From: Candidatus Woesearchaeota archaeon
GTDB taxonomy: Archaea > Nanobdellota > Nanobdellia > Pacearchaeales > GW2011-AR1
Reading direction: 5' to 3'
Length of the DNA: 64,000 nt
Assembly (NCBI GenBank): GCA_964514585.1
Contig: CAZETU010000005.1
Span: forward strand, 10,904-74,903
The notes below the pieces were generated by a model that saw only the letters and a program-made list of their open reading frames with translations, searched no databases and was not told the DNA's origin. Position 1 is the first letter of the stretch. Every line of letters starts with the position of its first letter. Below, one piece after another: positions 24,623-47,100 of the stretch. The position numbers were made by a program, and so were the translations under genes.

Positions 24623-25222
24623 TCAGTTGCCATTCGCATCCACATCAAGCAAGACAAGTTCGCCCAACATATATGGCTCATTCGGATCAGGATTATCCGC
24701 CGCAATTCTTCTGATTGCATTGTCCATGAGACGCAGCCTATGTTTCCTGTTGAGCCGAATCATCCCTAGAACATGATACTCAAGAGGTTTCCATGTCGGA
24801 GCCTCATTAAGTCTCTCTGCAATAGTCTTCCTGACCACCGAAACCGAATTCATCTCTTCGTACAGTTCGACAAGCTTGACCTTCATCGCTTCAAGAACCA
24901 CTTTTCTCAGCGCGAGGTTCTTCCGAACTTCCATAATCCTCTCTTCTCCCCAGCCATCCCTCTGGAAAAATCTCAACATCTCCAACCAAGCTTCAATCTC
25001 CAACTCGAGAATTTTCTTGTCGGTCTCAAGCTGACCGATATCAACCTGCAAATCGATTCCCATCATCAAGGTAGTATGCCACTGCCCCCGAAGACTACTT
25101 CCCCCCTCTCTGTCCCCCTGATTTCGATTCATCAATGCCAAGACCATGGCACTTGCAATCCCAACAATCCCCAGCGTAATCAAAACCTGAATCGACATAC
25201 CTCCGCGTCGTCTCGTATCCAT
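24623..25222 (-). CDS. Membrane-anchored coiled-coil protein, paralog family A
   Basis: RRRGG|MSIQ class III-like signal; WGEERIMEVRKNLALRKVVLEAM; DPNEP. Confidence 0.7.
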   Translation of the reverse strand: MDTRRRGGMSIQVLITLGIVGIASAMVLALMNRNQGDREGGSSLRGQWHTTLMMGIDLQVDIGQLETDKKILELEIEAWLEMLRFFQRDGWGEERIMEVRKNLALRKVVLEAMKVKLVELYEEMNSVSVVRKTIAERLNEAPTWKPLEYHVLGMIRLNRKHRLRLMDNAIRRIAADNPDPNEPYMLGELVLLDVDANGN

Positions 25223-25266
25223 ATCCCACCTTTCCTTTCCCTATATTCCCCCGTTGCCATTCAGTT

Positions 25267-25821
25267 CTACTTCACAATATACAGCCACGTATTGGGGTCG
25301 ATAAATTCGGCCAAGTTCTTAGGCCAATCAATCCCCTCTCCGTACATGACCAATTCAAGGTTCTTCTCGCTAAGACCCAGCTCATAGGTCTCATTAAGAG
25401 AAAAGACTACTTTCAACTCATCCCACTGAGTCACAGGAGGATCATCACTCACAATCCCACTCTTTTTTTCAAGAGCAACAATTGCAGCGATATGCTTCTT
25501 CTTCTTTTCACCAATCGCATCGAGCAAAATCCTTTTCACCAGGATGATACCCTCCAATCTCCTCAAGGCAGCCCCATCAGAGTAGAACCCCTTCTTCATA
25601 CTCTGTACAACCTTGCCCTTGTTCATCACGTGTCCATATATCTCAAGCTCCACAATACCCACTATCCTGTCGAGCTCACCAATTTTCCTAAGGAGCCCAT
25701 CAATCTCTCCCGAAATATCGACATTACCCACCTCTTCTTCGAAAGGAGGAGAAAGAATTGTCACGCTCAAAATAATTACAATCCCCACAATCAGGATATA
25801 TCTGTTCTTCCGACTGTTCAT
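25267..25821 (-). CDS. Membrane-anchored coiled-coil protein, paralog family A (divergent)
   Basis: Basic N-terminus + TM; LVKRILLDAI; DPPVTQW; FIDPN. Confidence 0.65.
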   Translation of the reverse strand: MNSRKNRYILIVGIVIILSVTILSPPFEEEVGNVDISGEIDGLLRKIGELDRIVGIVELEIYGHVMNKGKVVQSMKKGFYSDGAALRRLEGIILVKRILLDAIGEKKKKHIAAIVALEKKSGIVSDDPPVTQWDELKVVFSLNETYELGLSEKNLELVMYGEGIDWPKNLAEFIDPNTWLYIVK

Positions 25822-26073
25822 AAAACACCAACCTTCCCATATGTCCCGTCATCATCCAGTTCGTTTAGCACTCTCCAAAACCCTCTCCAAAAATTGGAGA
25901 ATACAAAAAGCAGAGCTCTGCCCCTCAGACATCTCCTCCTCCATGAAAAGAGTCTTTGAGGCAGAGCCCATATGCTACTCGGCGAAACAAAAGCGAACTC
26001 TACTCCTACGGCTTTGCAGCAGCCAGAAGAAAGCTTTCAAAGTAAAGCTCGCCAAAAATACAACCTCGGCGAA

Positions 26074-26997
26074 TTAGTCGTCCAATCGGCTCCGTTCAAC
26101 GGCGACAGCTATAGCCATCTCTTTCGCAAGATCAGTCTTCAATCGCTCGATCCGCCCCTGCTTTTCACCGGAGTAATTATCGAGAACCACAAGATCATTC
26201 CTACATTTCCCGATTCTCTGATAAAGGACATCGATTTCTAGACCAAGCCGTTCGACGATGTCCCAGCCGCGACGTTTCTCTGAAACAGAGCGTGTCTTCA
26301 TGGCTAGTTTCACTTTCTCTACGGCTACCGCCTTCCGAAGCCTGTCGCCTTTCATCTCGACGATCTCGTCCTCGATATCCTTTCTCGAGACAACCATCTC
26401 CTTCAGTTCCTCTTCGCCCTCACTGATAGCTCGTTCGATTCTGACTATCTCGAATCCGCTCGGCAAAGTCACCCCAACCCCAACCGCTTCATATGGGTCA
26501 ATCGCCACCCGCTCTTCAACAATTGGTTCCTCAGGCTCGGTGGCAATCATCTCTTCGACCCCATCCACAACGACAGTCGTAGTCGGCGCCACCGGCTCAT
26601 TCGGATCATCCACAACGACAGTCGTAGTCGGCGCCACACTGTTCACGTCAGCAGCCACGATAAGGCCATCACGACCGAATTGCTTAGGCAACTCCCTGGC
26701 AAGCTTAGGCAACTCCCTGGCAATCATCCAGCCTACAATACCCAGCGCCGCAAAACCTATCGCGAGAAAAGCGAAACCGCCAAAAGAAAGATCCTCCATG
26801 AAGGGAGTTTTCTTCCTCTTCTTAATAACCCTTTTCGCCTTCGCCGTAGCCCTTTTCGCCTTCGGCGTAACCCTTTTCGCCTTCGGCGTAACCCTTTTCG
26901 CCTTCGCCGTAACCCTTTTCGCCTTCGCCGTAGCTTTCTTCGCCGTAGCCCTTTTCGCCTTCGCCGTCTTCTTAATTACCTTCGTCATAATACACAT
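26074..26997 (-). CDS. Membrane protein with histone-H1-like KAKR repeats, PT-rich linker and coiled coil
   Basis: (TAKAKRV)n N-terminus, one TM, duplicated VAPTTTVVVD, DPNEP. Confidence 0.75.
   Translation of the reverse strand: MCIMTKVIKKTAKAKRATAKKATAKAKRVTAKAKRVTPKAKRVTPKAKRATAKAKRVIKKRKKTPFMEDLSFGGFAFLAIGFAALGIVGWMIARELPKLARELPKQFGRDGLIVAADVNSVAPTTTVVVDDPNEPVAPTTTVVVDGVEEMIATEPEEPIVEERVAIDPYEAVGVGVTLPSGFEIVRIERAISEGEEELKEMVVSRKDIEDEIVEMKGDRLRKAVAVEKVKLAMKTRSVSEKRRGWDIVERLGLEIDVLYQRIGKCRNDLVVLDNYSGEKQGRIERLKTDLAKEMAIAVAVERSRLDD
26829..26969. repeat. 21-bp tandem coding repeat (six units plus one 15-bp unit)
   Basis: CCCTTTTCGCCTTCG[C/G]CGT.. units. Confidence 0.9.
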
Positions 26998-27112
26998 CCT
27001 TTTTCAGTTACTGAATATTTTGATGGATTCCCACGCGAGAATCCTTCATCTCAACAACCCAAAACCTCAGGCCCCATAACAAGAACCCAAGAGTCCACGC
27101 TGTTTCCCAGAA

Positions 27113-27610
27113 TCAACACTCAACACCCAATCCTGCAGACACCCCGAGAACCAACCCTATGCCCATACATAGCCCGAATCCAAGAACCATAAAAACCATA
27201 TCCGGCTCTCCGATTAGTGCATTAGACACCCCGATACTCGGCACAACAATCAATACCATACACAGTCCAGTAAGATTCCCACAAACCAACGCATGAATCA
27301 ATCCATGTCTACTAGGAGGTCTCAGATTTCCCAATCCTCCCTTTCGCCAAGCCACAAAGAAAATAACGGCGAGGCTTATCAGTACACATTCAACCCACAA
27401 CAAAACCAATCCTCCCAATACAACAAAGAAGAGTTGCCCCCCCAAATTCCTTAAGCCAAAAACCTGGAGGAAAAAACCAACAATCAAAGCCCCATTAGAA
27501 ATTGCCGCCACACTAATGGCAATCGAGAAAAAACCAATACGTCTTCGCATCAACACAGTACACCTACTTTCTAAGTAACCTATTCCGCATATTTCGAGGG
27601 ATTTCCACAC
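27113..27610 (-). CDS. Hypothetical multi-pass membrane protein
   Basis: Four hydrophobic stretches; start uncertain. Confidence 0.5.
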   Translation of the reverse strand: MWKSLEICGIGYLESRCTVLMRRRIGFFSIAISVAAISNGALIVGFFLQVFGLRNLGGQLFFVVLGGLVLLWVECVLISLAVIFFVAWRKGGLGNLRPPSRHGLIHALVCGNLTGLCMVLIVVPSIGVSNALIGEPDMVFMVLGFGLCMGIGLVLGVSAGLGVEC

Positions 27611-27906
27611 GAAAATCCTTTCTCTCGTAAAGTTCTTACTATAAAAATCTCCGAAATGCCCTCGCTAAAACAAGCTATTTCCTAGCTGTTTCAGGGTATT
27701 CCGTTTTCATTTCAACAAATTGTTTCCAACCTGTATCAAATCCCACAAATCTCTAGAGAATCAACACAAAATTCTGCGCGTCATCAGTGGTACAAATAGT
27801 AACGTAAGTTACGAATGTGGGTGCCAAAAGGCCTAATTTAATAATAGAATAAACACCAACTTTCACTATAAAAACCTTACTATTTGTTACTATTTGCAAA
27901 TGACAA

Positions 27907-28632
27907 TCATTCACCAGTTATCCCTTCAACCGTTTTATGCAAAACTTGTCTATCAACCGATTCCTGAGATTTCGCCTTCTTATCAGTTTTCTCCCGAATC
28001 CCAGAAAGAATCTTCTTCATAACCTGAGGAAAGAAAATAGCTAAAATAACACCAGCAATCACAATTCCCAAAATTCCAATCCAACCATAATCCCAAACAA
28101 AATTAAGAGTAGTATGGGAAAACCTTCCCAAATTCAAAGGAACCTTTAAAACCAAAATAAAAGCAAATAAAACCAACCCAATAATTTGAGCAATCGAAAG
28201 AGGTATTAAATCCAAGTTGTCAGTAGGGTTCCCCTTGACTTCTTTAAATGCAAAAACAACATCATAAATCATCTCTCCCACAACCCCATTCAAAGCCTGA
28301 GCCAAAAAGAACAGCCAAAAATAAAGCACAAAAGCAAACAACCAAGTAATCGAAGGCACCATTCCAAAAACCACTTTCAACCAAACCGCGTTCTCCTCAA
28401 GCCACATATTAATCGCATCAATCCGAATCTCAGCCTCAGACTTACCAAAAACCCTACTAGGGTCAAACTTCCCACTCTCTGGATCAATCGGAATCTTCTT
28501 CTTCATATCCTGCAACTTGTCATAATCTTCACTATCAACTCCAGTGTCAAGCGGCTTAATAGCAACAACAGTTACAAACATAAAAACAACAATCAACAAA
28601 ACCCACAACTTTTTCATAATTTCTTTAAGCAC
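27907..28632 (-). CDS. Signal-peptide-bearing multi-pass membrane protein
   Basis: MKKLWVLLIVV signal; ~4 TM; basic tail. Confidence 0.7.
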   Translation of the reverse strand: MLKEIMKKLWVLLIVVFMFVTVVAIKPLDTGVDSEDYDKLQDMKKKIPIDPESGKFDPSRVFGKSEAEIRIDAINMWLEENAVWLKVVFGMVPSITWLFAFVLYFWLFFLAQALNGVVGEMIYDVVFAFKEVKGNPTDNLDLIPLSIAQIIGLVLFAFILVLKVPLNLGRFSHTTLNFVWDYGWIGILGIVIAGVILAIFFPQVMKKILSGIREKTDKKAKSQESVDRQVLHKTVEGITGE

Positions 28633-32768: not shown

Positions 32769-33044
32769 TTAATCCTTCCGATACCCAACTATCATTCTCT
32801 TTTTTCCAACGCCTTCATAAATCGGAACTTCAGTTCTTCCCTTCGTTTTATCCTGCCTTCTTCGACCAGTTCCATCAGCCATAGTCAAAACAACTCCAAT
32901 CACAACACCAACAATTCCAGCTCCAGCAACATACGTCCCCATTATACCTTCCATCATAGCAATATTCAAACCCAAAGCATCAAATCCCAAGACCATTAAA
33001 ACAAGTCCACCAACCGCAAAAACATAACCAATACCTCTATTCAT
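32769..33044 (-). CDS. Small 2-TM protein
   Basis: Two TM and basic tail EVPIYEG. Confidence 0.6.
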   Translation of the reverse strand: MNRGIGYVFAVGGLVLMVLGFDALGLNIAMMEGIMGTYVAGAGIVGVVIGVVLTMADGTGRRRQDKTKGRTEVPIYEGVGKKRMIVGYRKD

Positions 33045-33133
33045 GAAATATACAAGATTTAATTATTTAAAAATCTTACCATCGCCCAGCACTTAGGCAA
33101 ATATTACCTTTATCTTGACAATTAAATGTATAA

Positions 33134-33167
33134 TATTTTTCCAGGAGTCGCGTCTCGTGGAAAAATA
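33134..33167. repeat. Imperfect palindrome, copy 2
   Basis: TATTTTTCCA-G-GAGTCGCGTCTC-G-TGGAAAAATA. Confidence 0.8.
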
Positions 33168-33259
33168 GATTTATAATTTTTCACAAGAAAAATTATACTT
33201 AATCTCTTGAAGAGATTAACCACAATAATATTTATAAACAAAGTAAGTTTCCAACAATC

Positions 33260-33445
33260 ATGAATAAATTCATCGGAATCTTAATCGGGTTGGTTCTTCT
33301 TTTAGTACCAATCTATGCATGGATCGTAGACTTTTGGGGCATCAGCACCGCAGCGCTAATCTTCTTCAAAGGCGGCCTAGCGTGGATGTTAATCCTTATC
33401 GGCGCAGTCTCTCTATTAGTCAGCTTAAGCAGTCTTAAAGAGTAA
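33260..33445 (+). CDS. Small 2-TM protein
   Basis: 61 aa hydrophobic hairpin; TATA-like TTTATAAA upstream. Confidence 0.6.
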   Translation: MNKFIGILIGLVLLLVPIYAWIVDFWGISTAALIFFKGGLAWMLILIGAVSLLVSLSSLKE

Positions 33446-33484
33446 TACAATAATTTCTTTAAACTCACAAGTCGATCTTCTAAA

Positions 33485-34684
33485 ATGGATAGCTTGTGCA
33501 TTAAGTGTAAAGGAAAAGGTCTCTGCGGAAAACCATGCGAAATCTTAAACAAATTCATAGATAATGCTCCAAAGCCAAAACTCCACTTCTCAGGAAAATC
33601 AGCACCAGAACTTTTCGTCGGCAGAATCGGTTATCCATTCGTCAACTCCGGAATCCTAGCCCCCTCAGAAAACGACAATATCTCAAATTTCGCAACAGCC
33701 GAAGAATGGTCAAAAAATAATTTCTCAGTAGCCAATGTCCTTCGACTCCGAGGTCAACTAATCTACGGCAAAGGCCAATCCCACATCAAAACCTCATCAA
33801 AACTAAAACAAGTAACCCAAGAACTAGCCCTCTCATCAAAACCAGTTTCAACAGAATTCTTCCTAAAGAAAAAGCCCACAATGAGTTTTACGCCAGACTC
33901 AGTCTTCCGACCAATGACAAACCCCGCCCCCATAAAAAAAGTCCTCCTCGAAGAAAACCCAACAGTTTCAAAAAAAGTCGACTACATAACTTCCGACTGC
34001 GACGTCACAGCAACCGACGCATTACAAGAACTCTATCAATCAAACACAAAAGTCGACCACCTCCAAAAACTCTTATCAATAGGACTCCTTGGTAAAAAAA
34101 TCCGAAGACGAATGGTCCCAACAAGATGGAGCATCACAGCAACCGACGACACAATCTCAAAACAACAACTAGAAAAAATAAGATACTATCCAGAAATAAA
34201 CCAAATAATTCTATTCTCAGGAAACTTCGTCGGCAACTACGTCGAAGCACTTCTTCTCCCAGGACATTTTTCATTCGAAGCAATCGAAGCATGGCTTCCA
34301 GGAGCAACCTACACAGGCGACACAGTCCAATTTTCCCAAGACTACGAAACTTTCAAAGGCCGAACAAAATACGCATTCAACGTCACTGGCGGCTACTACG
34401 CAATGCGACTCCCCTTAACAGAATACTTAAGCAAGATAAAACGCCAAGCAACTTCTCTAATCTTCAGAGAAATAAAACCAGAATACTACGCGCCCCTCGG
34501 AGTCGGAATAGTCAGAGAAGCAACAAGACGAGCTTTCAAAAACCAACCACAAAACTTCGACACAATCGAAGATGCCCTCAAAAACATACAAGGCAGAATT
34601 TCAGCCTCGACAGAAAAAATCAAAACTGAATCATGGATTCTAAACAACTACGGCAAACAAAAATCCCTCAAACAATTCTTCTAA
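33485..34684 (+). CDS. Nre-family archaeal DNA repair protein
   Basis: CIKCKGKGLCGKPC Zn motif, FVGRIGYP, VPTRWSITATD, GGYYA, PLGV..VRE, PIP box QKSLKQFF. Confidence 0.9.
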   Translation: MDSLCIKCKGKGLCGKPCEILNKFIDNAPKPKLHFSGKSAPELFVGRIGYPFVNSGILAPSENDNISNFATAEEWSKNNFSVANVLRLRGQLIYGKGQSHIKTSSKLKQVTQELALSSKPVSTEFFLKKKPTMSFTPDSVFRPMTNPAPIKKVLLEENPTVSKKVDYITSDCDVTATDALQELYQSNTKVDHLQKLLSIGLLGKKIRRRMVPTRWSITATDDTISKQQLEKIRYYPEINQIILFSGNFVGNYVEALLLPGHFSFEAIEAWLPGATYTGDTVQFSQDYETFKGRTKYAFNVTGGYYAMRLPLTEYLSKIKRQATSLIFREIKPEYYAPLGVGIVREATRRAFKNQPQNFDTIEDALKNIQGRISASTEKIKTESWILNNYGKQKSLKQFF

Positions 34685-34995
34685 TCACCTAAACCCCAGC
34701 TCCCATTTTCCAAACGATAACCATTATTTATCAAATATCTATGCACTTGCTCATAAGTCAATTCTGGAGATTCATTCCGCTTACATTTCCCAGTTATTAT
34801 TTTATACATTGTATTCATCTCAGAAGGAGATGTTCCATCTCTATCATCAGTATCAGCCAATTTTGCAATTTCAGAATAAGCCGCATCATATTTCGCCCTA
34901 TCATCGCCCCATTTCCGAATTCCATTCTTAACTCCCGTCGCACCAGCCAATACAATTACAGTAGCCACAAGAAGAGTCAAAGGTCGCTTTCCCAT
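34681..34995 (-). CDS. Hypothetical membrane-anchored protein with EF-hand-like loop
   Basis: N-terminal TM; ADTDDRDGTSPSE. Confidence 0.5.
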   Translation of the reverse strand: MGKRPLTLLVATVIVLAGATGVKNGIRKWGDDRAKYDAAYSEIAKLADTDDRDGTSPSEMNTMYKIITGKCKRNESPELTYEQVHRYLINNGYRLENGSWGLGD

Positions 34996-35027
34996 AAAAC
35001 ACCAAGGACAATTTTCTATATAAACAT

Positions 35028-36068
35028 TTAGATACTCTTCAGCGCCTTATCAATCTCAGAAAATAATTTCCCATAATTAGGATTATACTTCTTCAACTTC
35101 CCAAGATAAAAATTCAACTTCCCCAAAAATTTTCCAACATCCTTCTCACTCAACTCCTCAGTCCAATCTCCAAACCCAACCTTCTCCAAAAATACAGCGT
35201 TCATGATTTGTTCAATTTGCCCCAACAAAGGAATCGCTAAATAAGGTTTATTCAAATAAATAGCCTCACTCATCAAACTAAACCCCGCTGTCCCAATCAC
35301 ACATTTGCAATTTCCCAAATCCCTCAAAAAAGTTTCCCTCGTCCGAAACTCAATATTCCCAACGGTCTTCTTTATATTAAACCCATAAACAACAAACTTC
35401 TCATCGAACTTCCCCAAAACTTTCAAGCTACTCTTATCACTCTTAGAAAGATAAACCAAAATCGGACCACTAGTCTTCGGCTTCAATTTCTGCACCTCTC
35501 CCCTAACAATCGGCGGCACAATCACGCTATTCTTTTTCCGAGCTTTCAAATTAGCAAACGACGTCACAATAAATTTATCAGCCTTCCGAACAAAAGTCTT
35601 TATAGTTTCTTTAGTCAACAAAAATTCCTTCCGATATTTCCGCGGAACATCAACCTTAAAGTTCGTCAACAAATGCTGATTATCAATACTCACCAAGGGC
35701 AAACGATACCAACAACTTAAAATAGGCACCAACGGTTCCATATCAGAAATACACAAATCAGGCTGAAAATTCTTCATCATGCGATAAAATTTCCGCCACC
35801 CCAAAAAATTCTTAGGAAAACTTTTCACATTATACCTAAACGTCTTCTTCTTTTTCAAGCTCCCCTTTTCAAAAACCAAATTCAAACCATTAACTTTCAT
35901 ACAATCAAACTTATCTCTCAAAACATTCCAGCCGTCACCATAGGTCACAATCTTAACCCGATGCCCCCTGTTCTCAAGATACTTCGCAATAAGCAAGGCT
36001 CTAGAAGAATGACCAAATCCAACACCCGCAACACCATACAATATATTCATCTTAAACAGCCAACCCAA
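35028..36068 (-). CDS. MJ1255/VC2487-like glycosyltransferase
   Basis: ILYGVAGVGFGHSSRA, ISDMEP, IDNQH, GTAGFSLMSEA, GQIEQ. Confidence 0.82.
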   Translation of the reverse strand: MGWLFKMNILYGVAGVGFGHSSRALLIAKYLENRGHRVKIVTYGDGWNVLRDKFDCMKVNGLNLVFEKGSLKKKKTFRYNVKSFPKNFLGWRKFYRMMKNFQPDLCISDMEPLVPILSCWYRLPLVSIDNQHLLTNFKVDVPRKYRKEFLLTKETIKTFVRKADKFIVTSFANLKARKKNSVIVPPIVRGEVQKLKPKTSGPILVYLSKSDKSSLKVLGKFDEKFVVYGFNIKKTVGNIEFRTRETFLRDLGNCKCVIGTAGFSLMSEAIYLNKPYLAIPLLGQIEQIMNAVFLEKVGFGDWTEELSEKDVGKFLGKLNFYLGKLKKYNPNYGKLFSEIDKALKSI

Positions 36069-36633
36069 TTAAAACACCCTCAATAATCCCAGCAACCAAC
36101 AACAAAGGAAAAATAACAAAAACAAAAAACCTCAAACCCTCTCTAAAATTATACCTCAAATTTTTCTTAACATCTTTCCCAAACAGCCCAGTTCCAATCT
36201 TCAAACCAATTCCAATCGAGAAAAGAATCGCCGGCAATTCAAAAATTCCATGAGGGGCAAGTCGCCATAAAACCAACATCCCACCTTCGTTTACAACCTC
36301 TCTAGAAACAAACCCAAGCAAATACCCATTAATAATCCCAGTCACCAAAGGAAAAATCCCAGCACCAATCCCAAGAATCATCGCAAAAAAACTCGCCCTC
36401 AAATTATTAAAGAAAATAAAAATTACAATCTCAAAAGAACTCTTCCCCTCAAGCATCGCAACCATCTCCTTCATGAATCCAAAAATCTCACCTCGCCAAA
36501 ACACAGGAAAAGCAAACCCTACCAAAAACATCAAAGCAAAAATCCCAAGCGAAAAAACAATATGCCAACGAGACTGAACAAAAAATTTCCAACACGCCGA
36601 ATAATTCCTAGCAAAAAATCCCTTCTTCTTCAT
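36052..36633 (-). CDS. Stage II sporulation protein M (SpoIIM)-like membrane protein
   Basis: IFFNN, NGYLLG, PHGIFELPA, AGIIEG. Confidence 0.85.
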   Translation of the reverse strand: MKKKGFFARNYSACWKFFVQSRWHIVFSLGIFALMFLVGFAFPVFWRGEIFGFMKEMVAMLEGKSSFEIVIFIFFNNLRASFFAMILGIGAGIFPLVTGIINGYLLGFVSREVVNEGGMLVLWRLAPHGIFELPAILFSIGIGLKIGTGLFGKDVKKNLRYNFREGLRFFVFVIFPLLLVAGIIEGVLIGLAV

Positions 36634-36670
36634 CCCTAATCAAAACATTCAAGTCTTTTATATCTTATTA

Positions 36671-37222
36671 TCAAGCAACCATCTCGCCATAAACCATTCT
36701 CTTCATTTTTCTTCTGGCAGCATTTAGCCCACTTTTCACAGTCCCAAGAGAAAATTTTTCCAATTCAGAAATTTTACTATACCCCTTCCCTTGTACCGTA
36801 CTCATTAAAATTCTCCTCTGTTTATCAGGAAGATCGTCAATTAACCCAAGAGCCAGATCAATAGTATCCTTATCACCAACAACCTCAGTATGATTCCTAT
36901 CTCTAGATGGTACCTGTGAAAGAATATCAATCTCACTTCCATCCCCAAATTGATAGTTACCAGAAGAACCCACAGCAGAAACCTGTCTCTGTCTCCTTCT
37001 AATCTCATCAAGACACAAGTTTCGACACATAGTGGCCAAATAAGTAATAGCAGGTCGAGTAGTATCGTAAGTAGTATTATTAAGTGCTCTCACATAAGTA
37101 TTTTGACAAACATCCCTAGCATCCTCATCATTAAATCCAAAACTCCTAGCCACACCCATAAGCCTCAGTCTAACAATGTCTATATTCTTCTCTAAATAAT
37201 CAGCTAGTTTATTTTCTCCCAT
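36671..37222 (-). CDS. ECF-type sigma-70 family factor
   Basis: sigma2 DARDVCQNTYVRAL...MCRNLCLDEIRRR; sigma4 LPDKQRRIL...YSKIS...SLGTVKSGLNAARRKM. Confidence 0.85.
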   Translation of the reverse strand: MGENKLADYLEKNIDIVRLRLMGVARSFGFNDEDARDVCQNTYVRALNNTTYDTTRPAITYLATMCRNLCLDEIRRRQRQVSAVGSSGNYQFGDGSEIDILSQVPSRDRNHTEVVGDKDTIDLALGLIDDLPDKQRRILMSTVQGKGYSKISELEKFSLGTVKSGLNAARRKMKRMVYGEMVA

Positions 37223-37273
37223 ACAAAAACTCCATAAAAAACCCTTTAATACTTATCGTTATCAGAGTGAGCA

Positions 37274-37918
37274 CTACTTAGAAAAATATTTACTAATCAT
37301 CTGCGTCTTCCTCGGATACTTCTTCTTAAGATAAAACCCATAGCCAACTCCAACAATCAAACCACCAAGATGAGCAATATTCCCAATAGGAAGACCAAGC
37401 CCAATCGAAAGAGCCCAAAGTGCAACCATCAAAAATACCATCGCAGCCCACATCGGCATAGGTATAACAAAGAAAACCAAAACTGGTAACCGTGGAGTTA
37501 AAACTGCCAAAAGTCCACCAAGTCCAAAAATCGCACCCGAAGCACCAACGGCATAAACATTTAAATCAATCCCAGTCAAACCAGCAATCGCCACAAAAAA
37601 CAAACCAGCAAAAAGCCCAGCCCCAAAATAAATAGCCAAAAATCTCTTCTTCCCAACAAGTCTCTCAACAAAACTTCCAATGAACATCAACGAAATCATA
37701 TTCACAAACAAGTGCCCAATCCCCGCGTGCATAAACATGCTCGTAACAAAAGTCCAAAGAGCATGACCAGCCAAAATCATCGAAGGCTGTAAAGCAATCA
37801 AAGAAATCGCTCGACTCTCATCCATAACATTCATTAAAATCAAAAACAAAACAAAAGCTATAACATTCACACCAATAATAATCCCAGTATAGCTAGAAAA
37901 GATACTCTTATTTTTCAT
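37274..37918 (-). CDS. Rhomboid intramembrane serine protease
   Basis: TSMFMH, HLFVNM, GASGAIFG, AHLGG. Confidence 0.92.
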   Translation of the reverse strand: MKNKSIFSSYTGIIIGVNVIAFVLFLILMNVMDESRAISLIALQPSMILAGHALWTFVTSMFMHAGIGHLFVNMISLMFIGSFVERLVGKKRFLAIYFGAGLFAGLFFVAIAGLTGIDLNVYAVGASGAIFGLGGLLAVLTPRLPVLVFFVIPMPMWAAMVFLMVALWALSIGLGLPIGNIAHLGGLIVGVGYGFYLKKKYPRKTQMISKYFSK

Positions 37919-37920
37919 GA

Positions 37921-38754
37921 TTATTTTTTCTTTCCAACGGCTTTCTTTATTTTGTTAAAGACGCTAATTTTCTTCTTAGCAACAATTTTCTTAACAACTT
38001 TCTTCTTAGCCAAAATTTTCTTAACAACTTTCTTCTTAGCCAAAATTTTCTTAACAACCTTCTTCTTCACAGGAGCTTTCTTCTTGACAATTTTCTTAAC
38101 AACCTTTTTCTTTGGAGCAAGTTTTGCCCTTGCTGCTGCCCTTGCTGCTTTGAGTATAGCCTTCTTCTCAATCTCTTCCTTAGCAAGTTTCTTATCGGCT
38201 CTAGCCCTCTTTTTAGATTCTTTATCTCTAATATTCACAAGCTCACCTTGAATCAATTCCAAATTCTTCTCAGTTCTCGTAATCTTAGCCTTAGTATCTC
38301 GAATGGCTCCACTATTATCAGACAACTCATAAACCTCAGCGCATTCCTCACAAGTAAACCCATGTTCAAGACCCTTCTCCTCGCTAACCTCAATCCCACA
38401 AGGTTTACAAATATAAAATCTCTTCGTCTCCCGACTATTCAGCGTCGCATTAAAATCCCCAATCTTACGAATCAAAGATTGCTCCAATACAACCAAGCAT
38501 TTCTCAATCTTCAACGTCCAATAATAAATATACCAGCCCTTCCTTTTATCTTTCTTCCTAATAAAAGAAACAAGCCCGTCGGCAGAAAGCTTATATAAAA
38601 TATTTCGAACCTGATTTATCGTCAACTCCATTTTCTTTGCTATCAAAAACTCATTAACATCTTTCTTTCCAAAAAGAATCTCAACTATACGGCCGGTCCC
38701 AACACCTGCCAATTCCTCGACGAGATCATGTAGAAGTTTAACTTGCATGTACAA
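37921..38754 (-). CDS. tfe: Transcription factor E (TFIIE-alpha homolog) with Lys-rich repeat tail
   Basis: INQVRNILYKL, KGWYIYYW, CKPC...CEEC Zn ribbon; KKVVKKILAK repeats. Confidence 0.88.
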   Translation of the reverse strand: MYMQVKLLHDLVEELAGVGTGRIVEILFGKKDVNEFLIAKKMELTINQVRNILYKLSADGLVSFIRKKDKRKGWYIYYWTLKIEKCLVVLEQSLIRKIGDFNATLNSRETKRFYICKPCGIEVSEEKGLEHGFTCEECAEVYELSDNSGAIRDTKAKITRTEKNLELIQGELVNIRDKESKKRARADKKLAKEEIEKKAILKAARAAARAKLAPKKKVVKKIVKKKAPVKKKVVKKILAKKKVVKKILAKKKVVKKIVAKKKISVFNKIKKAVGKKK

Positions 38755-38872
38755 TGATAATAATTTCCGTTTAAATACTTTCTCATTTTACCAAAGACAA
38801 AGTAATCTAAAGAACTGTTACTATTACAAAATTACCATAAACCTATAAAAAAGAAATCACCTAAACAATATC

Positions 38873-39538
38873 ATGGGGTTATTTAAAAAAGACGAAGAGG
38901 TTCCAGAACTACCGAAGCTTCCCTCCTTGCCAGAACTACCAAATAAAGAACTTTCAGAGAAAAAAGAACTCCCAGAACTTCCTTCTTTCCCAGCAACTCA
39001 AAACAACGAAAACATCAATCAAGAAATGGTCAAATCAGCCGTTACCGACGCTCCTTCAAAATTAAGCATGGAAGCACCTTCTGGGGAAGAAGAGGTGAAA
39101 ACTCCAGAAGGACTTCAAATAAAAGAGGACCCATCATTATCCCCACTTCCTTCACCTGCCCCAGGACTTCCCTCAATTCAATCAATTCAATCAACAAAAG
39201 AACCAGCAAAAATGCAATCTCCAATGTCTCTCCCAGAACCACCAAGACCCCAAGAAAAGAAATCTCTAGAACTACATGCTTCAATATCAGACAAATCAAT
39301 CAATACTCCAGCAACAAAACAATCAGAGCCAATCTTTGTCAGAATAGATAAATTTCAAGCAGCTCAAAAGAACTTCGAACAAATCAGAGACAAAGTAAAA
39401 GAAATAGAATCAGTTTTGAAAAAAATCAAAGATGTAAAATCTCAAGAAGAGACTGAAATAAAAGGCTGGACCGAAGACGTCGAAAAAATCAAAGCACGAC
39501 TATCAGAAATAGACACAGGCATCTTCGACCAAATTTAA
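38873..39538 (+). CDS. Pro-rich protein with C-terminal coiled coil
   Basis: ELPELP repeats; PIFVRIDKF then heptads. Confidence 0.7.
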   Translation: MGLFKKDEEVPELPKLPSLPELPNKELSEKKELPELPSFPATQNNENINQEMVKSAVTDAPSKLSMEAPSGEEEVKTPEGLQIKEDPSLSPLPSPAPGLPSIQSIQSTKEPAKMQSPMSLPEPPRPQEKKSLELHASISDKSINTPATKQSEPIFVRIDKFQAAQKNFEQIRDKVKEIESVLKKIKDVKSQEETEIKGWTEDVEKIKARLSEIDTGIFDQI

Positions 39539-39542
39539 TTTT

Positions 39543-39905
39543 ATGGCATCAAAAGAAGAACTCTACATTTCAATCAGTCCAAAAGAATACAGGGCAAACA
39601 AACTAAGCATTCTAGGTTGCCAAATCGACCTTCTTCAAACCCTAAAAAGACTTCACAACTTAAGCGTCCTCGCAAGACAAAAACACGACCTAAAAATCAG
39701 ACTCCAAAAATTACTATCATCAACAATGTTAGAAATCGACTCCGCTCAAAGCAAAATGCCAACACCCCAAGTCCCAAAAACGATAATAAAAAAACCAGAA
39801 GAACCAAAGATCGTCAAAGAAACAAAAAGAGACTTATCTATACAAAGTAACATAGACGAAGAATTAAGATCAATCCAAGAAAAGCTTCAAACACTAAATG
39901 GCTAA
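39543..39905 (+). CDS. Coiled-coil hypothetical protein
   Basis: LYISISPKEY then heptads; co-operonic. Confidence 0.65.
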   Translation: MASKEELYISISPKEYRANKLSILGCQIDLLQTLKRLHNLSVLARQKHDLKIRLQKLLSSTMLEIDSAQSKMPTPQVPKTIIKKPEEPKIVKETKRDLSIQSNIDEELRSIQEKLQTLNG

Positions 39906-39935
39906 ATTTAAAAGTCGACCTTCCTAAATTATTCT

Positions 39936-41690
39936 ATGAACAGAAAAGAACTAATCAAGAAATATATTGAATTCTTCAAGTCGAAAGACCACGCCGAAAT
40001 TAAAAACTCAAGCCTAATCCCAGAAAACGATCCAACGGTTTTATTCACAACCGCAGGAATGCAACCATTAGTGCCAAATCTATTAGGCGAATCCCACCCT
40101 CAGGGGAAAAGATTAGCAAACGTCCAACGATGCATTAGAACCGTAGACATAGAAGAAGTAGGTGACACATGCCACCATACCCTTTTCGAAATGCTCGGAA
40201 ACTGGTCTCTAGGCGATTATTTCAAAAAAGAAGCAATCCAAATGACATTTGAATTTGTAACAAAAGTTCTAAAATTACCAATTGAAAGATTAGCAGTATC
40301 AGTTTTCAAAGGAAACGAGAATGCCCCAAAAGATGAAGAATCCGCAGAGGCTTGGAGGTCATCAGGGTTCCCTCAGGAAAGAATTGCATTTTTAGAAGCA
40401 AAAGAAAATTTCTGGGGGCCCGCAGGAGAAACAGGACCATGCGGACCAAATACCGAAATATTTTATTGGAAGCTAAATGATGTTCCAGCACCAAAAGAAT
40501 ATGATTACACCGACGAAAACTGGGTAGAAATCGGAAACGATGTCATTATGGAATACGAAAAAGACAAAAAAGGAAATTACAAACTTCTTAACCAAAAAAA
40601 TATTGACTTCGGCGGCGGCGTAGAAAGAACAGTCGCAATTCTTAACGGCCTCGAAGATAACTATCTAGCAGACATGTGGCAACCAGTAATAAAAGAAATA
40701 GAAAAAATCTCAAATAAAAAATATGAAGATAATAAAAAAGAAATGCGAATCATAGCAGACCACATCAAGGCAGCAACTTTCATAATCGCCGATGGGGCAG
40801 TCCCGGGCAATGCAGAACAAGGCTATGTCCTAAGAAGACTAATTAGAAGAGCAATCAGAAACCTAAGAAAAATAGACATCCCAATTTTAGAAATGGATGC
40901 AACAGTTGAAATCGCAAAAATAATAATCGACATCTACGACGATTACGAAATATTACAAAACAACAAAGAAAAAATATTATCAGAGCTAAAAGCCGAAGAA
41001 GACAAATTTCAAAAAACTCTCGACAAAGGATTAAGAGAATTCGAAAAAATGAGCTCAGACGACAAAATCGACGCAAAAGAATCATTCCTACTTTACCAAT
41101 CATACGGCTTCCCAATCGAAATGATAAAAGAGCTAGCAAAAGAAAAAGGAATCAAAGTCGACGAAAAAGGTTTCAACAAAGAATTCAACAAACACCAAGA
41201 ACTTTCACGTACAGCCTCAGCAGGAAAATTCAAATCCGGTCTAGCAGATAATTCCGACGCAACAAAAAAACTACACACAGCTTGCCACCTCCTTAACGAA
41301 GCCCTCAGGGTTGTTCTAAAAAACAAAGAGATTTTCCAGAAAGGTTCCAATATCACACCAGAAAGATTACGTTTCGATTTTAACTTCGATAGAAAATTAA
41401 CAGACGAAGAAAAACAGGCAATCGAAGATTTAGTAAATAAAAAAATTCAAGAAAACATACCAGTAGAATTACAAGAACTAACGTTAGACGAAGCAAAGCA
41501 ACAAGGAGCCCAAGGTGTATTCGACTCAAAATACGGAGACAAAGTAAAGGTCTACTCTGTTGGAGATTTTAGCAAAGAAATTTGCGCAGGCCCCCACGCC
41601 GAAAACACTTCAGAATTAGGAACCTTCAAAATCAAAAAAGAACAATCAAGCTCTTCGGGCGTTAGAAGAATCAAAGCAGTACTTGAATAA
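39936..41690 (+). CDS. alaS: Alanine--tRNA ligase, short form lacking C-Ala domain
   Basis: LFTTAGMQP, FEMLGNWSLGDYFK, GPCGPNTE, DFGGGVER, HTACHLL, EICAGPH, GVRRIKA terminus. Confidence 0.95.
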   Translation: MNRKELIKKYIEFFKSKDHAEIKNSSLIPENDPTVLFTTAGMQPLVPNLLGESHPQGKRLANVQRCIRTVDIEEVGDTCHHTLFEMLGNWSLGDYFKKEAIQMTFEFVTKVLKLPIERLAVSVFKGNENAPKDEESAEAWRSSGFPQERIAFLEAKENFWGPAGETGPCGPNTEIFYWKLNDVPAPKEYDYTDENWVEIGNDVIMEYEKDKKGNYKLLNQKNIDFGGGVERTVAILNGLEDNYLADMWQPVIKEIEKISNKKYEDNKKEMRIIADHIKAATFIIADGAVPGNAEQGYVLRRLIRRAIRNLRKIDIPILEMDATVEIAKIIIDIYDDYEILQNNKEKILSELKAEEDKFQKTLDKGLREFEKMSSDDKIDAKESFLLYQSYGFPIEMIKELAKEKGIKVDEKGFNKEFNKHQELSRTASAGKFKSGLADNSDATKKLHTACHLLNEALRVVLKNKEIFQKGSNITPERLRFDFNFDRKLTDEEKQAIEDLVNKKIQENIPVELQELTLDEAKQQGAQGVFDSKYGDKVKVYSVGDFSKEICAGPHAENTSELGTFKIKKEQSSSSGVRRIKAVLE

Positions 41691-42158
41691 CTATATACCT
41701 GAAAGAGATATGCCTAAAGACCTTAAACTTTCTCCCGAATCTTTTATAAGTTTATCAATCTTAGCCCCAGAAGCTGTCGCAATATATCCCAAAGCCACAG
41801 AAGGAAAAAGTTCCGAAGCAGTATTATCCCAATTGTATATCCCAATTAATTCTGGAGTTTTGTCGACTAAAATAGAATATTCTCTCCATTCAGGAATATC
41901 GCGTGCGCCACTACTCCATTCATTGCCATGAATCCTTTCATCCTCAACCATAGCCGAAAGAGAAGCCTCAATTGCTTTATATATTTTTGTTCCAATATCA
42001 TCTCCCCTCAGCGCAAGAAGAATCTGATCCTCATTTCCATTATTAAATCCGTGAAGATTATCGACAGTTACATCAGAAGCATTAAATGCAGGTCTAATAT
42101 AATGTTCAAAAGAGGGAACTCTCCAATACCGTCTCCCAAGGATAATCGCCGAACCCAT
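41691..42158 (-). CDS. Hypothetical protein
   Basis: 155-aa ORF convergent on alaS. Confidence 0.5.
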   Translation of the reverse strand: MGSAIILGRRYWRVPSFEHYIRPAFNASDVTVDNLHGFNNGNEDQILLALRGDDIGTKIYKAIEASLSAMVEDERIHGNEWSSGARDIPEWREYSILVDKTPELIGIYNWDNTASELFPSVALGYIATASGAKIDKLIKDSGESLRSLGISLSGI

Positions 42159-44185: not shown

Positions 44186-47100
44186 TCACTCCAACCAAAC
44201 AGATGGCTTCCCCGGCTTAGCTTTCTTAGCCCGATTCTCCGGATCACGTTTCCCAGCATCATTAACCGCGTAAACCTCAACTTCCTTCCCAACACCTTTC
44301 GAAATCTTCTTCTCATCAATCTTCCCAATCTCAAACGGCATCACATAAATACAAACTTTCTCAACATCACCCTCAGTCTTATCCAAAATCCCCTTCACAT
44401 TCTCAATAACCTTTCCATTAAAATCTCCAGCCTCACCTTTTTTCAAAATCTTTTTCTCATCAACCTTAGGCCAACTCGACTTGGAAATAAAACCCTTATT
44501 CCCAATCTTCTCCCAAAGCTCCTCGGCAATATGCGGACAAATCGGACTAAGCAATTGCAAGAATTTTTCATAAGTTTCTTTTGAAACTATTTTTTCAGCT
44601 TCAATTAAACCAAATAAAGCTCGAATGAGAATAGTTGCCTTACGATATTCAAAATTGTCATAATAACCCGTGACCATTTTTACCACATTATTTATTCTAA
44701 TTTCCAATCCTTTTGAGTCTTTTCCAAAAGTTATCTTATCAGAAAATTCAAAAATTTTCTTCACAAATCTACTAGACCCATTAATCCCCTTCTCACTCCA
44801 ATCAATATTCTTATCAGGACTAGCCAAACTCGACAAGAAAAACCGCGCCGTATCAATCCCATACTTAGAAGAAACCTCCTCAGGCAAAACCCCATTCCCC
44901 TTAGACTTACTCATCTTCTCCCCGTCCTCACCATGCAACATTCCCTGATGAAACAACCGAACCGCCGGCTCATCAAAATCAATCAACCCAAGGTCCCTCA
45001 AAAACTTCACATAAAACCGCGAATAAATCAAATGCATACAAGCATGCTCAGCCCCGCCAACATAAGTATCAACCGGACACCAATACTTCACCTTCTTCGG
45101 ATCAAAAATAGCCTTATCATTCCCAGGATCACAATACCTCAAAAAATACCAAGAAGAATTAACAAAAGTATCCATAGTATCAGATTCTCGCCGACCTTTA
45201 CCCCCACACTTAGGGCATTTCACATTCAACCATTTCTCATTAGTCTCCAAGGGATTCCCATCCCCAAACTTAACATCCTTCGGTAATTCAATAGGCAAGT
45301 CTTTTTCAGCCACACCAACAACCCCACACTTCTCACAATAAATCACAGGAATCGGCGTCCCCCAATATCTCTGACGACTAACTCCCCAATCCCGAAGCTT
45401 AAAATTAACAACATCCCGACCAACCCCTTTCTTCTTCAACCACGAAGTAATCTTCTTCTTTGCCTCAACATTATCAACCCCATCAAACTCACCAGAATTA
45501 CAAAGCTTACCCCCGCCAACATAAGCCTCACTCTTTCCCAAATATTCCAACAGCCCAGCACAATTATCCTTATGTGTCATCTGTTCCAAAGCCTCATCAG
45601 CCCCAAGCCAAATCGCATCATGCCTATTCTTTTCTTTCTCTTCAACCTCCACAGGCTTCTCATCTATCAACTCCAACAAAACCGGCTGATCCACCCGAGC
45701 CCTCCAAACCTTTTTATTATCAGCATAAAAATAAGACTCAACCTTCTCTCCCAAAGTCCTAACAAATTTCGTCTTATAACCAGTCTCTTCCAAGGCCTCC
45801 CTAACGGCAGCATCTTCAACCGACTCACCCTCGTCAACTCCACCAACAACAGGCGCAATCCAACCAAACTCCTTCCACTTCACCAACAAAAACTTATCAT
45901 CACTCTTCCGATGCACAACAACAGAAATCGTATCCCTATAAACAGCATCCTTATGCGCCTCCCCATAAACAGGACGAACAACCTGCCTAACCTCAATCCC
46001 ATACTTCTTAGCAAACTCAAAATCCCGAGCATCATGCGCAGGAACAGCCATCACCATCCCAGCCCCATAATCCGCAACAACAAAATTCCCAGCCCAAACA
46101 GGAACTCGCCTACCATTAACAGGATTAACAGCATACGACCCAGTAAAAACCCCTTCCTTCTCTAAGTCACCAGCGTCCTTCTCGGAAACCGATTTCAACT
46201 TCTTCAAAAACTTATCAACTTCTTCCCTTTGCCCCTTGGTAACCAACGAATCCAAATTAGCATGCTGCGCAGAAACAACCATAAATGTAACCCCAAAAAT
46301 AGTATCAGGACGAGTCGTAAAAATCGGCCACTTATCCTTTTTGAAAAACTCTAAAACCTCCTCAAGCTTTTTGACTCCCTCACTATCACTCATATGCTTC
46401 TTGCCTTTCAGAATTTCAACATTTTCAAAATTCTCTTTAAAAAAATCAACAACCTCACCATTTATGTAAGGATCATCTGCTCCAAATATAAAATCAATTT
46501 TTCTAGCATTATTTTTAACCTTATCAACATCTAAACCATGAGACTGATATTTTTTAAAAATCTCCAGCTCCTCTTTCGGCAAAGAATTCTTGAACTGAGA
46601 AAAATATTTATCACTAGGATTAAACCCAACAGGTGAAACTAAAACTAATTTATCAACATTATATTTTTCAGCAAGCTTCAACGCAAGATGTCCACCCATA
46701 CTATGCCCAACAATGGAAAAATTCTTCAACCCATTTTTTTTAATCTTCTTTTCAGCAAAGTTCATCCATTCATCAAAATCAGGAGAATTAGTATCAGGAA
46801 AATCAAAATCAAAAACCTCCTTCCCATCATTTTCCAACTTATCTTTTAACCAAGGAATAAATCCAGATTTAGAAGTGTCTTCCCATCCATGCAAAATCAA
46901 AACTTGTTCCTTCACCCTATTGATTTCATTCAACAACTCAGGAAATTCATGAGTTCCCATAGAACCAAAAACAAAATGACCATGATTTTTCAAATCAATA
47001 ATTTTGCCCCCAATATCTTTTTCAAAAAGCTTAACACTCTTTTTCCCATCATCTTCTTCATTATCCGAAGTAAAAATAACAGCCTCATCAATATTTTCCT

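What the first reader, a model, noticed from the sequence alone, without database searches (positions are those of the whole stretch)
36671..37222. Complete bacterial ECF-type sigma factor in an archaeal genome, next to TFE and a rhomboid protease
Seen: intact sigma2 and sigma4 motifs; an archaeal TATA-like TATTAAA 22 nt upstream of a leaderless ATG; co-directional run tfe-rhomboid-sigma-spoIIM-glycosyltransferase. Known: archaeal RNAP uses TBP/TFB/TFE rather than sigma factors; sigma-like genes have been noted in DPANN genomes before, but their function is unknown. Inference: repurposed as a DNA-binding regulator, or acting on a bacterial partner's RNAP. No anti-sigma is evident.
Basis: partly seen in the sequence, partly recalled or inferred. 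Interest (0 to 1): 0.72.

Follow-up and report, generated by a model that had tools for sequence, protein, structure and literature searches.

The report
Bacterial-type sigma gene in DPANN archaeon
A tiny archaeon carries an intact bacterial-style (ECF) sigma factor gene with its own archaeal promoter, but such genes were reported in these archaea in 2021, its place beside TFE and rhomboid comes from insertion into a variable slot, and its function remains unknown.

Summary
Window 36671-37222 (minus strand) encodes a 183-aa protein with Sigma70_r2 and Sigma70_r4_2 domains. It passes the ECF superfamily cut-off, folds confidently (pLDDT 90) and matches only ECF sigma structures. The genome is archaeal (TBP, RpoH, TFE, Nre; no bacterial alpha-CTD), and the contig is not chimeric.

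The phenomenon is not new. Castelle et al. 2021 reported sigma-70 genes in DPANN archaea with no anti-sigma. I find sigma region 2 in 103/301 genomes of the order and 156/401 of the phylum sample. This scan has noted the same thing in at least 35 other genomes.

The link to TFE and rhomboid is not functional. TFE-rhomboid-SpoIIM is a conserved string in the genus, with the rhomboid stop usually overlapping the SpoIIM start. The sigma gene sits in that junction in only 2 of 45 loci, and other genomes hold unrelated genes there.

The gene is long resident:
- its composition equals the host's;
- its TATA lies at -29, the genome-wide position;
- no relative exceeds 32% identity.

It evolves very fast: the syntenic copy is 22% identical, against 42-60% for the flanking genes.

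My favoured reading, which is inferred, is a dispensable accessory DNA-binding regulator working with the archaeal machinery. This is a new member of a known kind, of modest interest.

The parts
36671..37222 (-). ECF-type sigma-70 family gene, 183 aa, intact
   Evidence: ORF. Pfam r2 + r4_2. TIGR02937 above cut-off. AF2 pLDDT 90.3. Foldseek top hits are all ECF sigmas.
36986..37165 (-). Sigma region 2 domain (aa 20-79). In bacteria this is the core-binding and -10-recognition domain.
   Evidence: PF04542, E 4.3e-11. It keeps D37, Q40, Y61 (consensus W), N68, D72 and R75.
36704..36847 (-). Sigma region 4.2 HTH domain (aa 126-173). In bacteria this is the -35-recognition domain.
   Evidence: PF08281, E 5.7e-6. 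It keeps L131, P132, R136 and G160-T-V-K-S164. R165G and R168A depart from the consensus.
37245..37251 (-). TATA-like box TATTAAA of the sigma gene, starting at -29 from the ATG (leaderless architecture)
   Evidence: Sequence. The genome-wide TATA peak lies at -29..-27. The syntenic gene in G042 has TTTAAA at -29.
36634..37273 (-). About 640-bp inserted segment relative to sigma-less relatives: 51-nt spacer, sigma gene, 37-nt spacer
   Evidence: In most genomes of the genus the rhomboid stop overlaps the SpoIIM start (ATGA).
36657..36662 (-). TATAAA at -29 of SpoIIM, which gives it its own promoter downstream of the insert
   Evidence: The G042 locus has the equivalent TTTAAA at -29 of its SpoIIM.
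37274..37918 (-). Rhomboid protease gene, a conserved flank and not a dedicated partner
   Evidence: PF01694, E 4.5e-32. It lies next to SpoIIM without any sigma in 43 of 45 loci of the genus.
36052..36633 (-). SpoIIM-family membrane protein gene, a conserved flank and not a dedicated partner
   Evidence: PF01944, E 2.5e-23. It is present in 45 of 49 genomes of the genus.
37921..38754 (-). TFE-alpha gene with a Lys-rich C-terminal tail, a conserved flank
   Evidence: PF02002, E 8e-15; NF004910, 113 bits. Synteny.

Best explanation
This is a genuine, intact, long-resident archaeal chromosomal gene for an ECF-family (group 4) sigma-70 homologue. It is one more member of the patchy, fast-evolving sigma-70-family genes already reported in DPANN archaea.

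It arrived as a single-gene cassette in a variable slot that splits an otherwise translationally coupled rhomboid-SpoIIM pair. It is transcribed by the archaeal polymerase from its own TATA box at -29, as a leaderless mRNA.

Inferred, not shown:
- The product is a cytoplasmic two-domain helix-turn-helix protein with no cognate anti-sigma and no bacterial RNA polymerase to serve.
- It most likely acts as a dispensable, lineage-specific DNA-binding regulator. It would bind through the region-4 HTH, perhaps with help from region 2, and modulate initiation by TBP/TFB/TFE and the archaeal polymerase.
- It has no functional tie to the neighbouring TFE, rhomboid or SpoIIM genes.
For: Identity:
- Domains, superfamily cut-off and fold all fit an ECF sigma.
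- The protein keeps 25 of 46 consensus positions, including D37, Q40, N68, D72, R75, L131 and GTVKS.

Native and not chimeric:
- The same protein is seen on 9 contigs, the longest 218.8 kb.
- The flanks are syntenic with 44 other genomes of the genus.
- GC is 0.382 against a genome mean of 0.373, the codon-usage score is at the 57th percentile, and the coding-strand GC skew matches the neighbours.
- The TATA box is at the genome-wide -29 position.

Not recent:
- The best non-self relative among 1.84 billion representatives is 32% identical.

Archaeal machinery only:
- TBP and RpoH are present; no alpha-CTD was found.
- In the phylum sample, alpha-CTD occurs in 14/401 genomes and sigma region 2 in 156/401.

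Known kind:
- Castelle et al. 2021.
- 103/301 genomes of the order carry sigma region 2.

Insertion into a slot:
-.

Region-4-type HTH already works in archaea:
- PF08281 matches in all four archaeal control genomes, whereas PF04542 matches in none.

Constraint over the long term:
- The syntenic G042 copy is intact, has its own -29 TATA and shares the signature residues at 22% identity.
- A second ECF-like lineage is held between FtsZ and deoxyhypusine synthase across three genera.
Against: - There is no expression, binding or interaction data.
- The gene is present at this slot in only 2 of 45 loci of the genus, so it is dispensable.
- The one close pair available, in another archaeal ECF-like lineage, gives dN/dS of about 0.65 (7 non-synonymous, 3 synonymous changes). 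Its neighbours give 0 and 0.02.
- One relative carries an in-frame stop. Weak constraint or ongoing loss is therefore possible.
- Retention of the region-2.2 D/Q helix, which in bacteria contacts the polymerase clamp, is not explained by a plain HTH-regulator role.
- RpoD-like sigmas with regions 1.1-4 in the same class hint at a polymerase-directed function for the class.
Confidence: 0.5

Rival explanations
1. Weakly constrained passenger. The gene is an old import that no longer does anything important. It drifts fast and is being lost lineage by lineage. It happens to be still intact here.
For: - The distribution is patchy: 2 of 45 loci in the genus and 34% of genomes in the order.
- Divergence at fixed positions is extreme. 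Here the sigma copies are 22% identical against 42-60% for the flanks. Elsewhere they are 23-29% identical against 65-90% for the FtsZ and DHS flanks.
- dN/dS is about 0.65 in the only close pair, against 0-0.02 for the neighbours.
- There is an in-frame TAA in G310.
Against: - At this depth of divergence a neutral ORF in a 38% GC genome would not stay open, keep a canonical promoter, keep 25 of 46 consensus residues or fold at pLDDT 90.
- Both syntenic copies are intact.
- Sigma genes are retained in 136 of 280 genera sampled, in genomes that are otherwise reduced.
Confidence: 0.25
2. True archaeal sigma. Region 2 docks on the clamp coiled-coil of the archaeal RNA polymerase, which is the homologue of the bacterial beta-prime clamp helices and the site used by TFE and Spt5. 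The protein then either directs promoter-specific initiation or competes with TFE/Spt5.
For: - The region-2.2 residues D37 and Q40 are kept here. Across 26 archaeal ECF-like sequences D37 is 77% identical (100% similar) and Q40 is 77% identical. The region-2.3 aromatic residue is 100% similar.
- Full RpoD-like sigmas with regions 1.1, 1.2, 3 and 4 exist in the same class without a bacterial polymerase.
- From general knowledge, not tested here: the clamp coiled-coil is conserved in all cellular polymerases.
Against: - No such interaction has ever been reported.
- TBP, TFB and TFE are present and sufficient.
- The gene is dispensable within the genus.
- Adjacency to TFE is accidental.
Confidence: 0.12
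3. Effector aimed at a bacterial partner. The protein is delivered into a bacterial host or neighbour and redirects that cell's RNA polymerase.
For: - It is a complete canonical ECF architecture.
- Very fast evolution fits a host-symbiont arms race.
- Weak affinity to Bacteroidota ECF models and loci.
Against: - No signal peptide or hydrophobic N-terminus is visible in the translation.
- No secretion genes are adjacent.
- The tools give no evidence of any bacterial host for this lineage.
Confidence: 0.06
4. Assembly or binning artefact. A bacterial fragment has been joined to an archaeal contig.
For: None was found. The only prior is that sigma factors are bacterial.
Against: - The gene lies inside a 74.9-kb contig between genes syntenic with 44 relatives.
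- The same protein is assembled on 9 contigs, the longest 218.8 kb.
- It has host composition, host GC skew and a host-type promoter.
- Genome contamination is 0.54%.
Confidence: 0.01

Closest known systems
Sigma-70 family genes of DPANN archaea (protein family fam00359; Castelle et al. 2021, Front Microbiol, PMC8204110)
   Same: Both are bacterial-type sigma genes in small DPANN archaeal genomes. They are prevalent in Woesearchaeota-like lineages, not due to mis-binning, lack a recognisable anti-sigma, and have unknown function. My tallies agree: 103/301 genomes in the order and 156/401 in the phylum sample.
   Different: As quoted, the paper describes the family only in general terms as sigma-70. 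This copy is the short ECF form (region 2 + region 4). It has no relative above 32% identity and sits in a genus-specific variable slot. Membership of fam00359 itself could not be tested because no model is at hand.
Bacterial ECF (group 4) sigma factors, e.g. B. subtilis SigW (PDB 5wuq), M. tuberculosis SigH/SigL/SigE (5zx2, 6dv9, 9m9d), E. coli sigmaE (1or7, 6jbq)
   Same: It has the two-domain region 2 + region 4 architecture, the superfamily HMM score, the predicted fold and the signature residues.
   Different: The host has only an archaeal polymerase. There is no co-transcribed anti-sigma. The promoter is an archaeal TATA rather than an autoregulated ECF promoter. Several -35-contact consensus positions are changed (R165G, R168A), as is E41N in region 2.2.
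Bacteroidota ECF groups: NCBIfam NF058625 (GFO_1088 / PG0214 family) and TIGR02985 (Sig70_bacteroi1)
   Same: These are the best-scoring specific models (64.3 and 57.6 bits). The only named genome hits are Bacteroidaceae and Flavobacteriales, at 29% identity.
   Different: Scores are far below the curated cut-offs of 130 and 126.4, so it is not a member. The tree gives no supported affinity.
Region-4/LuxR-type HTH regulators native to archaea
   Same: The region-4.2 HTH domain model matches in all four archaeal control genomes. This DNA-binding module therefore already works with archaeal transcription.
   Different: Those proteins lack sigma region 2. PF04542 matches no archaeal control genome.

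Membership tests
ECF (group 4) sigma-70 family | Sigma region 2 domain present | tested here: met
   PF04542 at aa 20-79, E 4.3e-11, 42.9 bits against cut-off 24.
ECF (group 4) sigma-70 family | Sigma region 4 (4.2 HTH) domain present | tested here: met
   PF08281 at aa 126-173, 26.3 bits against cut-off 25.7. The match is also found in the genome scan.
ECF (group 4) sigma-70 family | No regions 1.1, 1.2 or 3; only a short linker between region 2 and region 4 | tested here: met
   The protein is 183 aa, and no r1 or r3 Pfam match was found. The model shows a linker of about 45 aa holding a small hairpin.
ECF (group 4) sigma-70 family | Scores above the curated superfamily model | tested here: met
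   TIGR02937 sigma70-ECF scores 55.3 bits against cut-off 42.9.
ECF (group 4) sigma-70 family | ECF sigma fold | tested here: met
   AF2 mean pLDDT is 90.3. There are 26 Foldseek hits at E<=1e-3, and the listed ones are almost all sigma-70-family chains, mainly ECF sigmas led by SigH, SigE, SigL and sigmaE.
ECF (group 4) sigma-70 family | Binds bacterial core RNA polymerase and directs promoter-specific initiation | not testable with these tools
   This needs biochemistry. The host genome shows only archaeal machinery.
ECF (group 4) sigma-70 family | Cognate anti-sigma factor, usually co-transcribed (typical of the family, not universal) | tested here: not met
   The neighbours are conserved rhomboid and SpoIIM genes that are present without any sigma in relatives. 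No zf-HC2, RskA_C or FecR match was found in the genome.
Specific ECF groups (NF058625 GFO_1088 family; TIGR02985; SigW NF007223) | Score above the curated cut-off of the group model | tested here: not met
   Scores are 64.3 against 130, 57.6 against 126.4, and 51.7 against 209.
DPANN archaeal sigma-70 genes (Castelle et al. 2021) | Sigma-70 family gene lying on a genuinely archaeal DPANN-type contig | tested here: met
   The genome is about 1.04 Mb with TBP, RpoH, TFE, Nre and PolB. The taxon name is not given by the tools.
DPANN archaeal sigma-70 genes (Castelle et al. 2021) | Membership of the paper's protein family fam00359 | not testable with these tools
   The family model is not available here.

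The most novel reading that the evidence does not exclude
The sigma region 2 of this and other DPANN sigma homologues docks on the clamp coiled-coil of the archaeal RNA polymerase. These proteins would then act as real sigma-like initiation or anti-TFE/Spt5 factors. That would be sigma-dependent control of an archaeal, eukaryote-like polymerase, with fast evolution reflecting conflict with viruses or hosts.
Probability: 0.1. Interest if true: 0.9.

Novelty: new member of a known kind. Interest (0 to 1): 0.33.

Why it matters
What bacterial sigma factors do in cells that have only an archaeal polymerase is an open question, raised in 2021 and still unanswered. This locus does not answer it, and it removes a false lead, namely the TFE/rhomboid neighbourhood.

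It does offer a clean candidate for experiment:
- it is the only sigma gene in a 1-Mb genome;
- it is short;
- it is confidently folded;
- it has its own archaeal promoter;
- it has no partner genes to complicate the picture.

The comparison also documents two properties of the class that any functional model must explain. The genes occupy fixed slots between housekeeping genes. They diverge several times faster than their flanks while keeping the sigma signature residues.

Tried and rejected
I could therefore not inspect the contigs of the nearest database relatives (P0003-P0010) or of the 99% identical P0001. Whether those relatives are bacterial or archaeal is unknown.
- No dN/dS was possible for the window's own gene. 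Nothing lies between 32% and 99% identity in 15 billion proteins, and P0001 differs by a single residue, N48S.
- The genome contigs and metagenome-contig scans returned only 26-29% identical hits.
- The AU test on the full 84-row tree did not finish in three runs. I replaced it with a 30-row subset.
- The sigma tree is largely unresolved, and no donor can be named.
- A functional link to rhomboid (as a site-1 protease) or to SpoIIM (as a membrane anti-sigma) was considered and rejected. Both are conserved without sigma in the genus. Neither lies beside sigma genes in about 65 other archaeal loci.
- Recurrent neighbours of other archaeal sigmas are housekeeping genes, not anti-sigma candidates. 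They are FtsZ, deoxyhypusine synthase, a nucleotidyltransferase, a metallophosphoesterase and a PLD-like protein.
- A dCas12f/TnpB-type partner, suggested by Foldseek hit 9n9q, was considered. The unknown 446-aa and 348-aa ORFs nearby have no Pfam match and are separated from the sigma gene by conserved genes.
- Literature searches for ECF sigmas in archaea found nothing beyond Castelle et al. 2021.
- A Woesearchaeota metatranscriptome paper does not mention sigma factors.

Full report
**Observation.**
The ORF at 36671-37222 on the minus strand encodes 183 aa. Pfam finds Sigma70_r2 (aa 20-79, E 4.3e-11) and Sigma70_r4_2 (aa 126-173, E 5.7e-6), both above their gathering scores. The NCBIfam ECF superfamily model TIGR02937 scores 55.3 bits against a cut-off of 42.9. 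Every specific ECF group model falls far below its cut-off, the best being NF058625 at 64.3 against 130.

An AlphaFold2 model built on a 78-sequence alignment has mean pLDDT 90.3. It shows four helices, a linker with a small hairpin, then four more helices. Foldseek against the PDB is led by ECF sigma factors: M. tuberculosis SigH, SigE and SigL, E. coli sigmaE, SigW, AlgU and CnrH. The best sequence match among solved structures is B. subtilis SigW.

The TATTAAA box is at 37251-37245, with 22 nt between it and the ATG.

**The host is archaeal and the contig is sound.**
The genome is 1.04 Mb in 18 contigs, 89.65% complete with 0.54% contamination. The window lies inside a 74.9-kb contig.
- The genome has TBP and RpoH and no bacterial alpha-CTD.
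- The window also holds Nre, a family-B DNA polymerase and an intron-containing tRNA.
- The exact protein has been assembled on 9 contigs from several sources, the longest 218.8 kb.
- GC is 0.382 against a genome mean of 0.373. The codon-usage likelihood is at the 57th percentile. The coding-strand GC skew of +0.39 matches its minus-strand neighbours.

The genome is strongly leaderless. A TATA-like hexamer starts at -30..-27 in 34% of 940 ORFs, against 6% in a control window, with a sharp peak at -29..-27. The sigma gene's TATTAA starts at -29.

**Already known, and common.**
Castelle et al. 2021 (PMC8204110) reported sigma-70 genes in DPANN genomes. They found them 'particularly prevalent in Woesearchaeota', ruled out mis-binning, and found no anti-sigma factors.

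My own counts agree:
- PF04542 is found in 103 of 301 genomes of the order, in 31 of 82 high-quality genomes, and in 53 of 122 genera.
- It is found in 156 of 401 genomes of the phylum-level sample.
- As a contamination control, bacterial alpha-CTD is found in only 14 of the 401 genomes of an equal-sized phylum-level draw.

The phylum tallies include two unpublished genomes, G560 and G639, both positive for sigma. Without them the sigma count is 154/399. No sequence from either was fetched or used.

The class holds three architectures:
- ECF-like forms of 170-240 aa;
- forms with regions 2-3-4, of 260-350 aa;
- RpoD-like forms with regions 1.1/1.2-2-3-4, including giants up to 1741 aa with the sigma part at the C-terminus.

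This scan has noted the same phenomenon in at least 35 other genomes.

**The neighbourhood is an accident of insertion.**
I searched the genus with the SpoIIM protein and examined all 45 loci found. TFE-rhomboid-SpoIIM, with a convergent Nre, is a conserved string. In most genomes the rhomboid stop overlaps the SpoIIM start as ATGA.

A sigma gene lies in that junction only in this genome and in G042 (L060:913-1470, 185 aa). In other genomes the same junction holds a 363-aa protein, a 104-aa membrane protein or a 135-aa receiver-like protein. It is therefore a variable slot.

In both sigma-bearing genomes the sigma gene and the displaced SpoIIM gene each have a TATA box at -29. Among about 65 sigma loci from other genera, none has rhomboid, SpoIIM or TFE beside it. 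The genome holds no other sigma region 2, and no zf-HC2, RskA_C or FecR match was found.

**History and rate.**
The nearest relative in 1.84 billion representative proteins is 32% identical (E 6e-15), apart from a 99% identical copy that differs by N48S. No donor can be named. The tree is unresolved, and the archaeal ECF-like sequences are scattered on long branches.

The G042 copy is only 22% identical (E 5e-9), while its flanking genes are 42% (rhomboid), 56% (SpoIIM) and 60% (Nre) identical. A tree constrained to join the two syntenic sigmas is not rejected, and is in fact slightly better (lnL +3.4, p-AU 0.64). Long branches limit the power of this test.

Adjacency of rhomboid and SpoIIM looks ancestral in both subgroups of the genus. 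So either the cassette moved between genus members through the homologous flanks, or it was lost many times. I cannot decide between these.

The same pattern holds elsewhere. In four genomes of three other genera an ECF-like sigma sits between FtsZ (85-90% identical) and deoxyhypusine synthase (65-70% identical). Those sigmas are only 23-29% identical to each other. One locus has a tandem duplicate, and one has an in-frame TAA.

The only close pair, G101 and G268, gives dN/dS of about 0.65 for the sigma (7 non-synonymous, 3 synonymous changes). FtsZ gives 0 (0/20) and DHS gives 0.02 (2/23). These genes are thus held at fixed places for a long time and evolve far faster than their neighbours.

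**Is it constrained at all?**
The window's protein keeps 25 of 46 positions that are at least 60% conserved among its nearest database relatives:
- D37 and Q40 in region 2.2;
- Y61 in place of the region-2.3 tryptophan;
- N68, D72 and R75;
- L131, P132 and R136;
- G-T-V-K-S at 160-164.

It departs at E41N, R165G and R168A. Across 26 archaeal ECF-like sequences the same positions are kept at 58-85% identity, against 74-98% in the reference set.

An ORF drifting neutrally to about 25% identity would not keep these residues, an open frame, a canonical promoter and a confident fold. I therefore infer long-term purifying selection that is weak and uneven. 'Recent transfer' can be excluded.

**Mechanism.**
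Shown:
- It is an intact ECF-type protein.
- It has native archaeal transcription signals.
- No bacterial alpha-CTD domain, used here as the marker of the bacterial polymerase, was found in the 89.65%-complete assembly.
- No anti-sigma is evident.
- No hydrophobic N-terminus is visible in the translation.
- It has no conserved partner genes.

Inferred:
- It works inside the archaeal cell as an accessory DNA-binding regulator.
- Region-4-type HTH domains already occur in all four archaeal control genomes, whereas region 2 occurs in none. The HTH half has a ready role, and the region-2 half is the puzzle.
- Region 2.2 is the helix that, in bacteria, contacts the beta-prime clamp helices. This is from my own knowledge of sigma70 mutants at Q406/E407 and is not tested here. 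Its conserved D/Q residues, together with the RpoD-like forms in the class, keep alive the more radical reading that these proteins touch the archaeal polymerase clamp.
- Fast evolution would also fit an arms race, but nothing else here supports delivery to a bacterial partner.

**Verdict.**
This is a new member of a kind already published and repeatedly met in this scan. The suggestive neighbourhood is explained away, and the function is still open.

Noticed in passing
L045:674-1765, L055:2103-2417, L056:2082-2489, L086:1664-2498 (genus relatives); window 36634-37273: The rhomboid/SpoIIM junction is a variable slot in this genus. Different genomes hold a 363-aa orphan, a 104-aa membrane protein, a 135-aa receiver-like protein or an 830-bp unexamined gap there. 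Most genomes instead have an ATGA stop/start overlap. How genes get inserted there is unknown.
   Followed up: partly
L072:1264-2697, L073:1327-1974, L075:1486-2046, L076:1486-2046, L077:1330-1990: A second ECF-like sigma lineage is fixed between FtsZ and deoxyhypusine synthase in three other genera. The sigmas are 23-29% identical while their flanks are 65-90% identical. L072 has a tandem duplicate, L077 has an in-frame TAA, and dN/dS is about 0.65 in the one close pair.
   Followed up: partly
L098:1016-6241, L099:834-3905, L100:783-3491, L107:820-3006, L109:1236-2351: Archaea of the same class encode RpoD-like sigmas with regions 1.1/1.2, 2, 3 and 4. Some have N-terminal extensions that bring them to 700-1741 aa. 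One also has weak MarR_2 and other HTH-type matches without a significant stretch in its extension.
   Followed up: partly
window 37921-38754 (-), aa about 175-277: TFE-alpha carries a roughly 100-aa Lys-rich repetitive C-terminal tail (KKKVVKKI-type repeats, with a weak histone-H1-like HC2 match). Relatives align only to about residue 215.
   Followed up: no
window 44186-48202 (-) and 51697-54366 (-): LeuRS (1338 aa) has serine-hydrolase and NUDIX domains inserted in frame, and UvrB (889 aa) has a serine-hydrolase domain inserted in frame. Other agents of this scan have already followed this up.
   Followed up: no
window 20000-28000: A GC-richer island (0.44-0.47 against about 0.37) holds many overlapping ORFs on both strands and has no Rfam match. 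Other readers have already noted it.
   Followed up: no
window 33000-42000 and whole genome: There is a strong strand-linked GC skew in coding sequences. Minus-strand genes run at +0.26 to +0.56 and plus-strand genes at -0.03 to -0.31 on their coding strand.
   Followed up: no
window 63804-63956 (+): Rfam finds a 153-nt tRNA, probably intron-containing, that ARAGORN misses.
   Followed up: no
G580:C25:124161-124322, G455:C12:16171-16347, G547:C1:32139-32312 and others: A bacterial RNA polymerase alpha-CTD-like domain occurs in 14 of 401 genomes of the phylum sample, mostly in ORFs of about 400 aa. What these proteins are was not examined.
   Followed up: no
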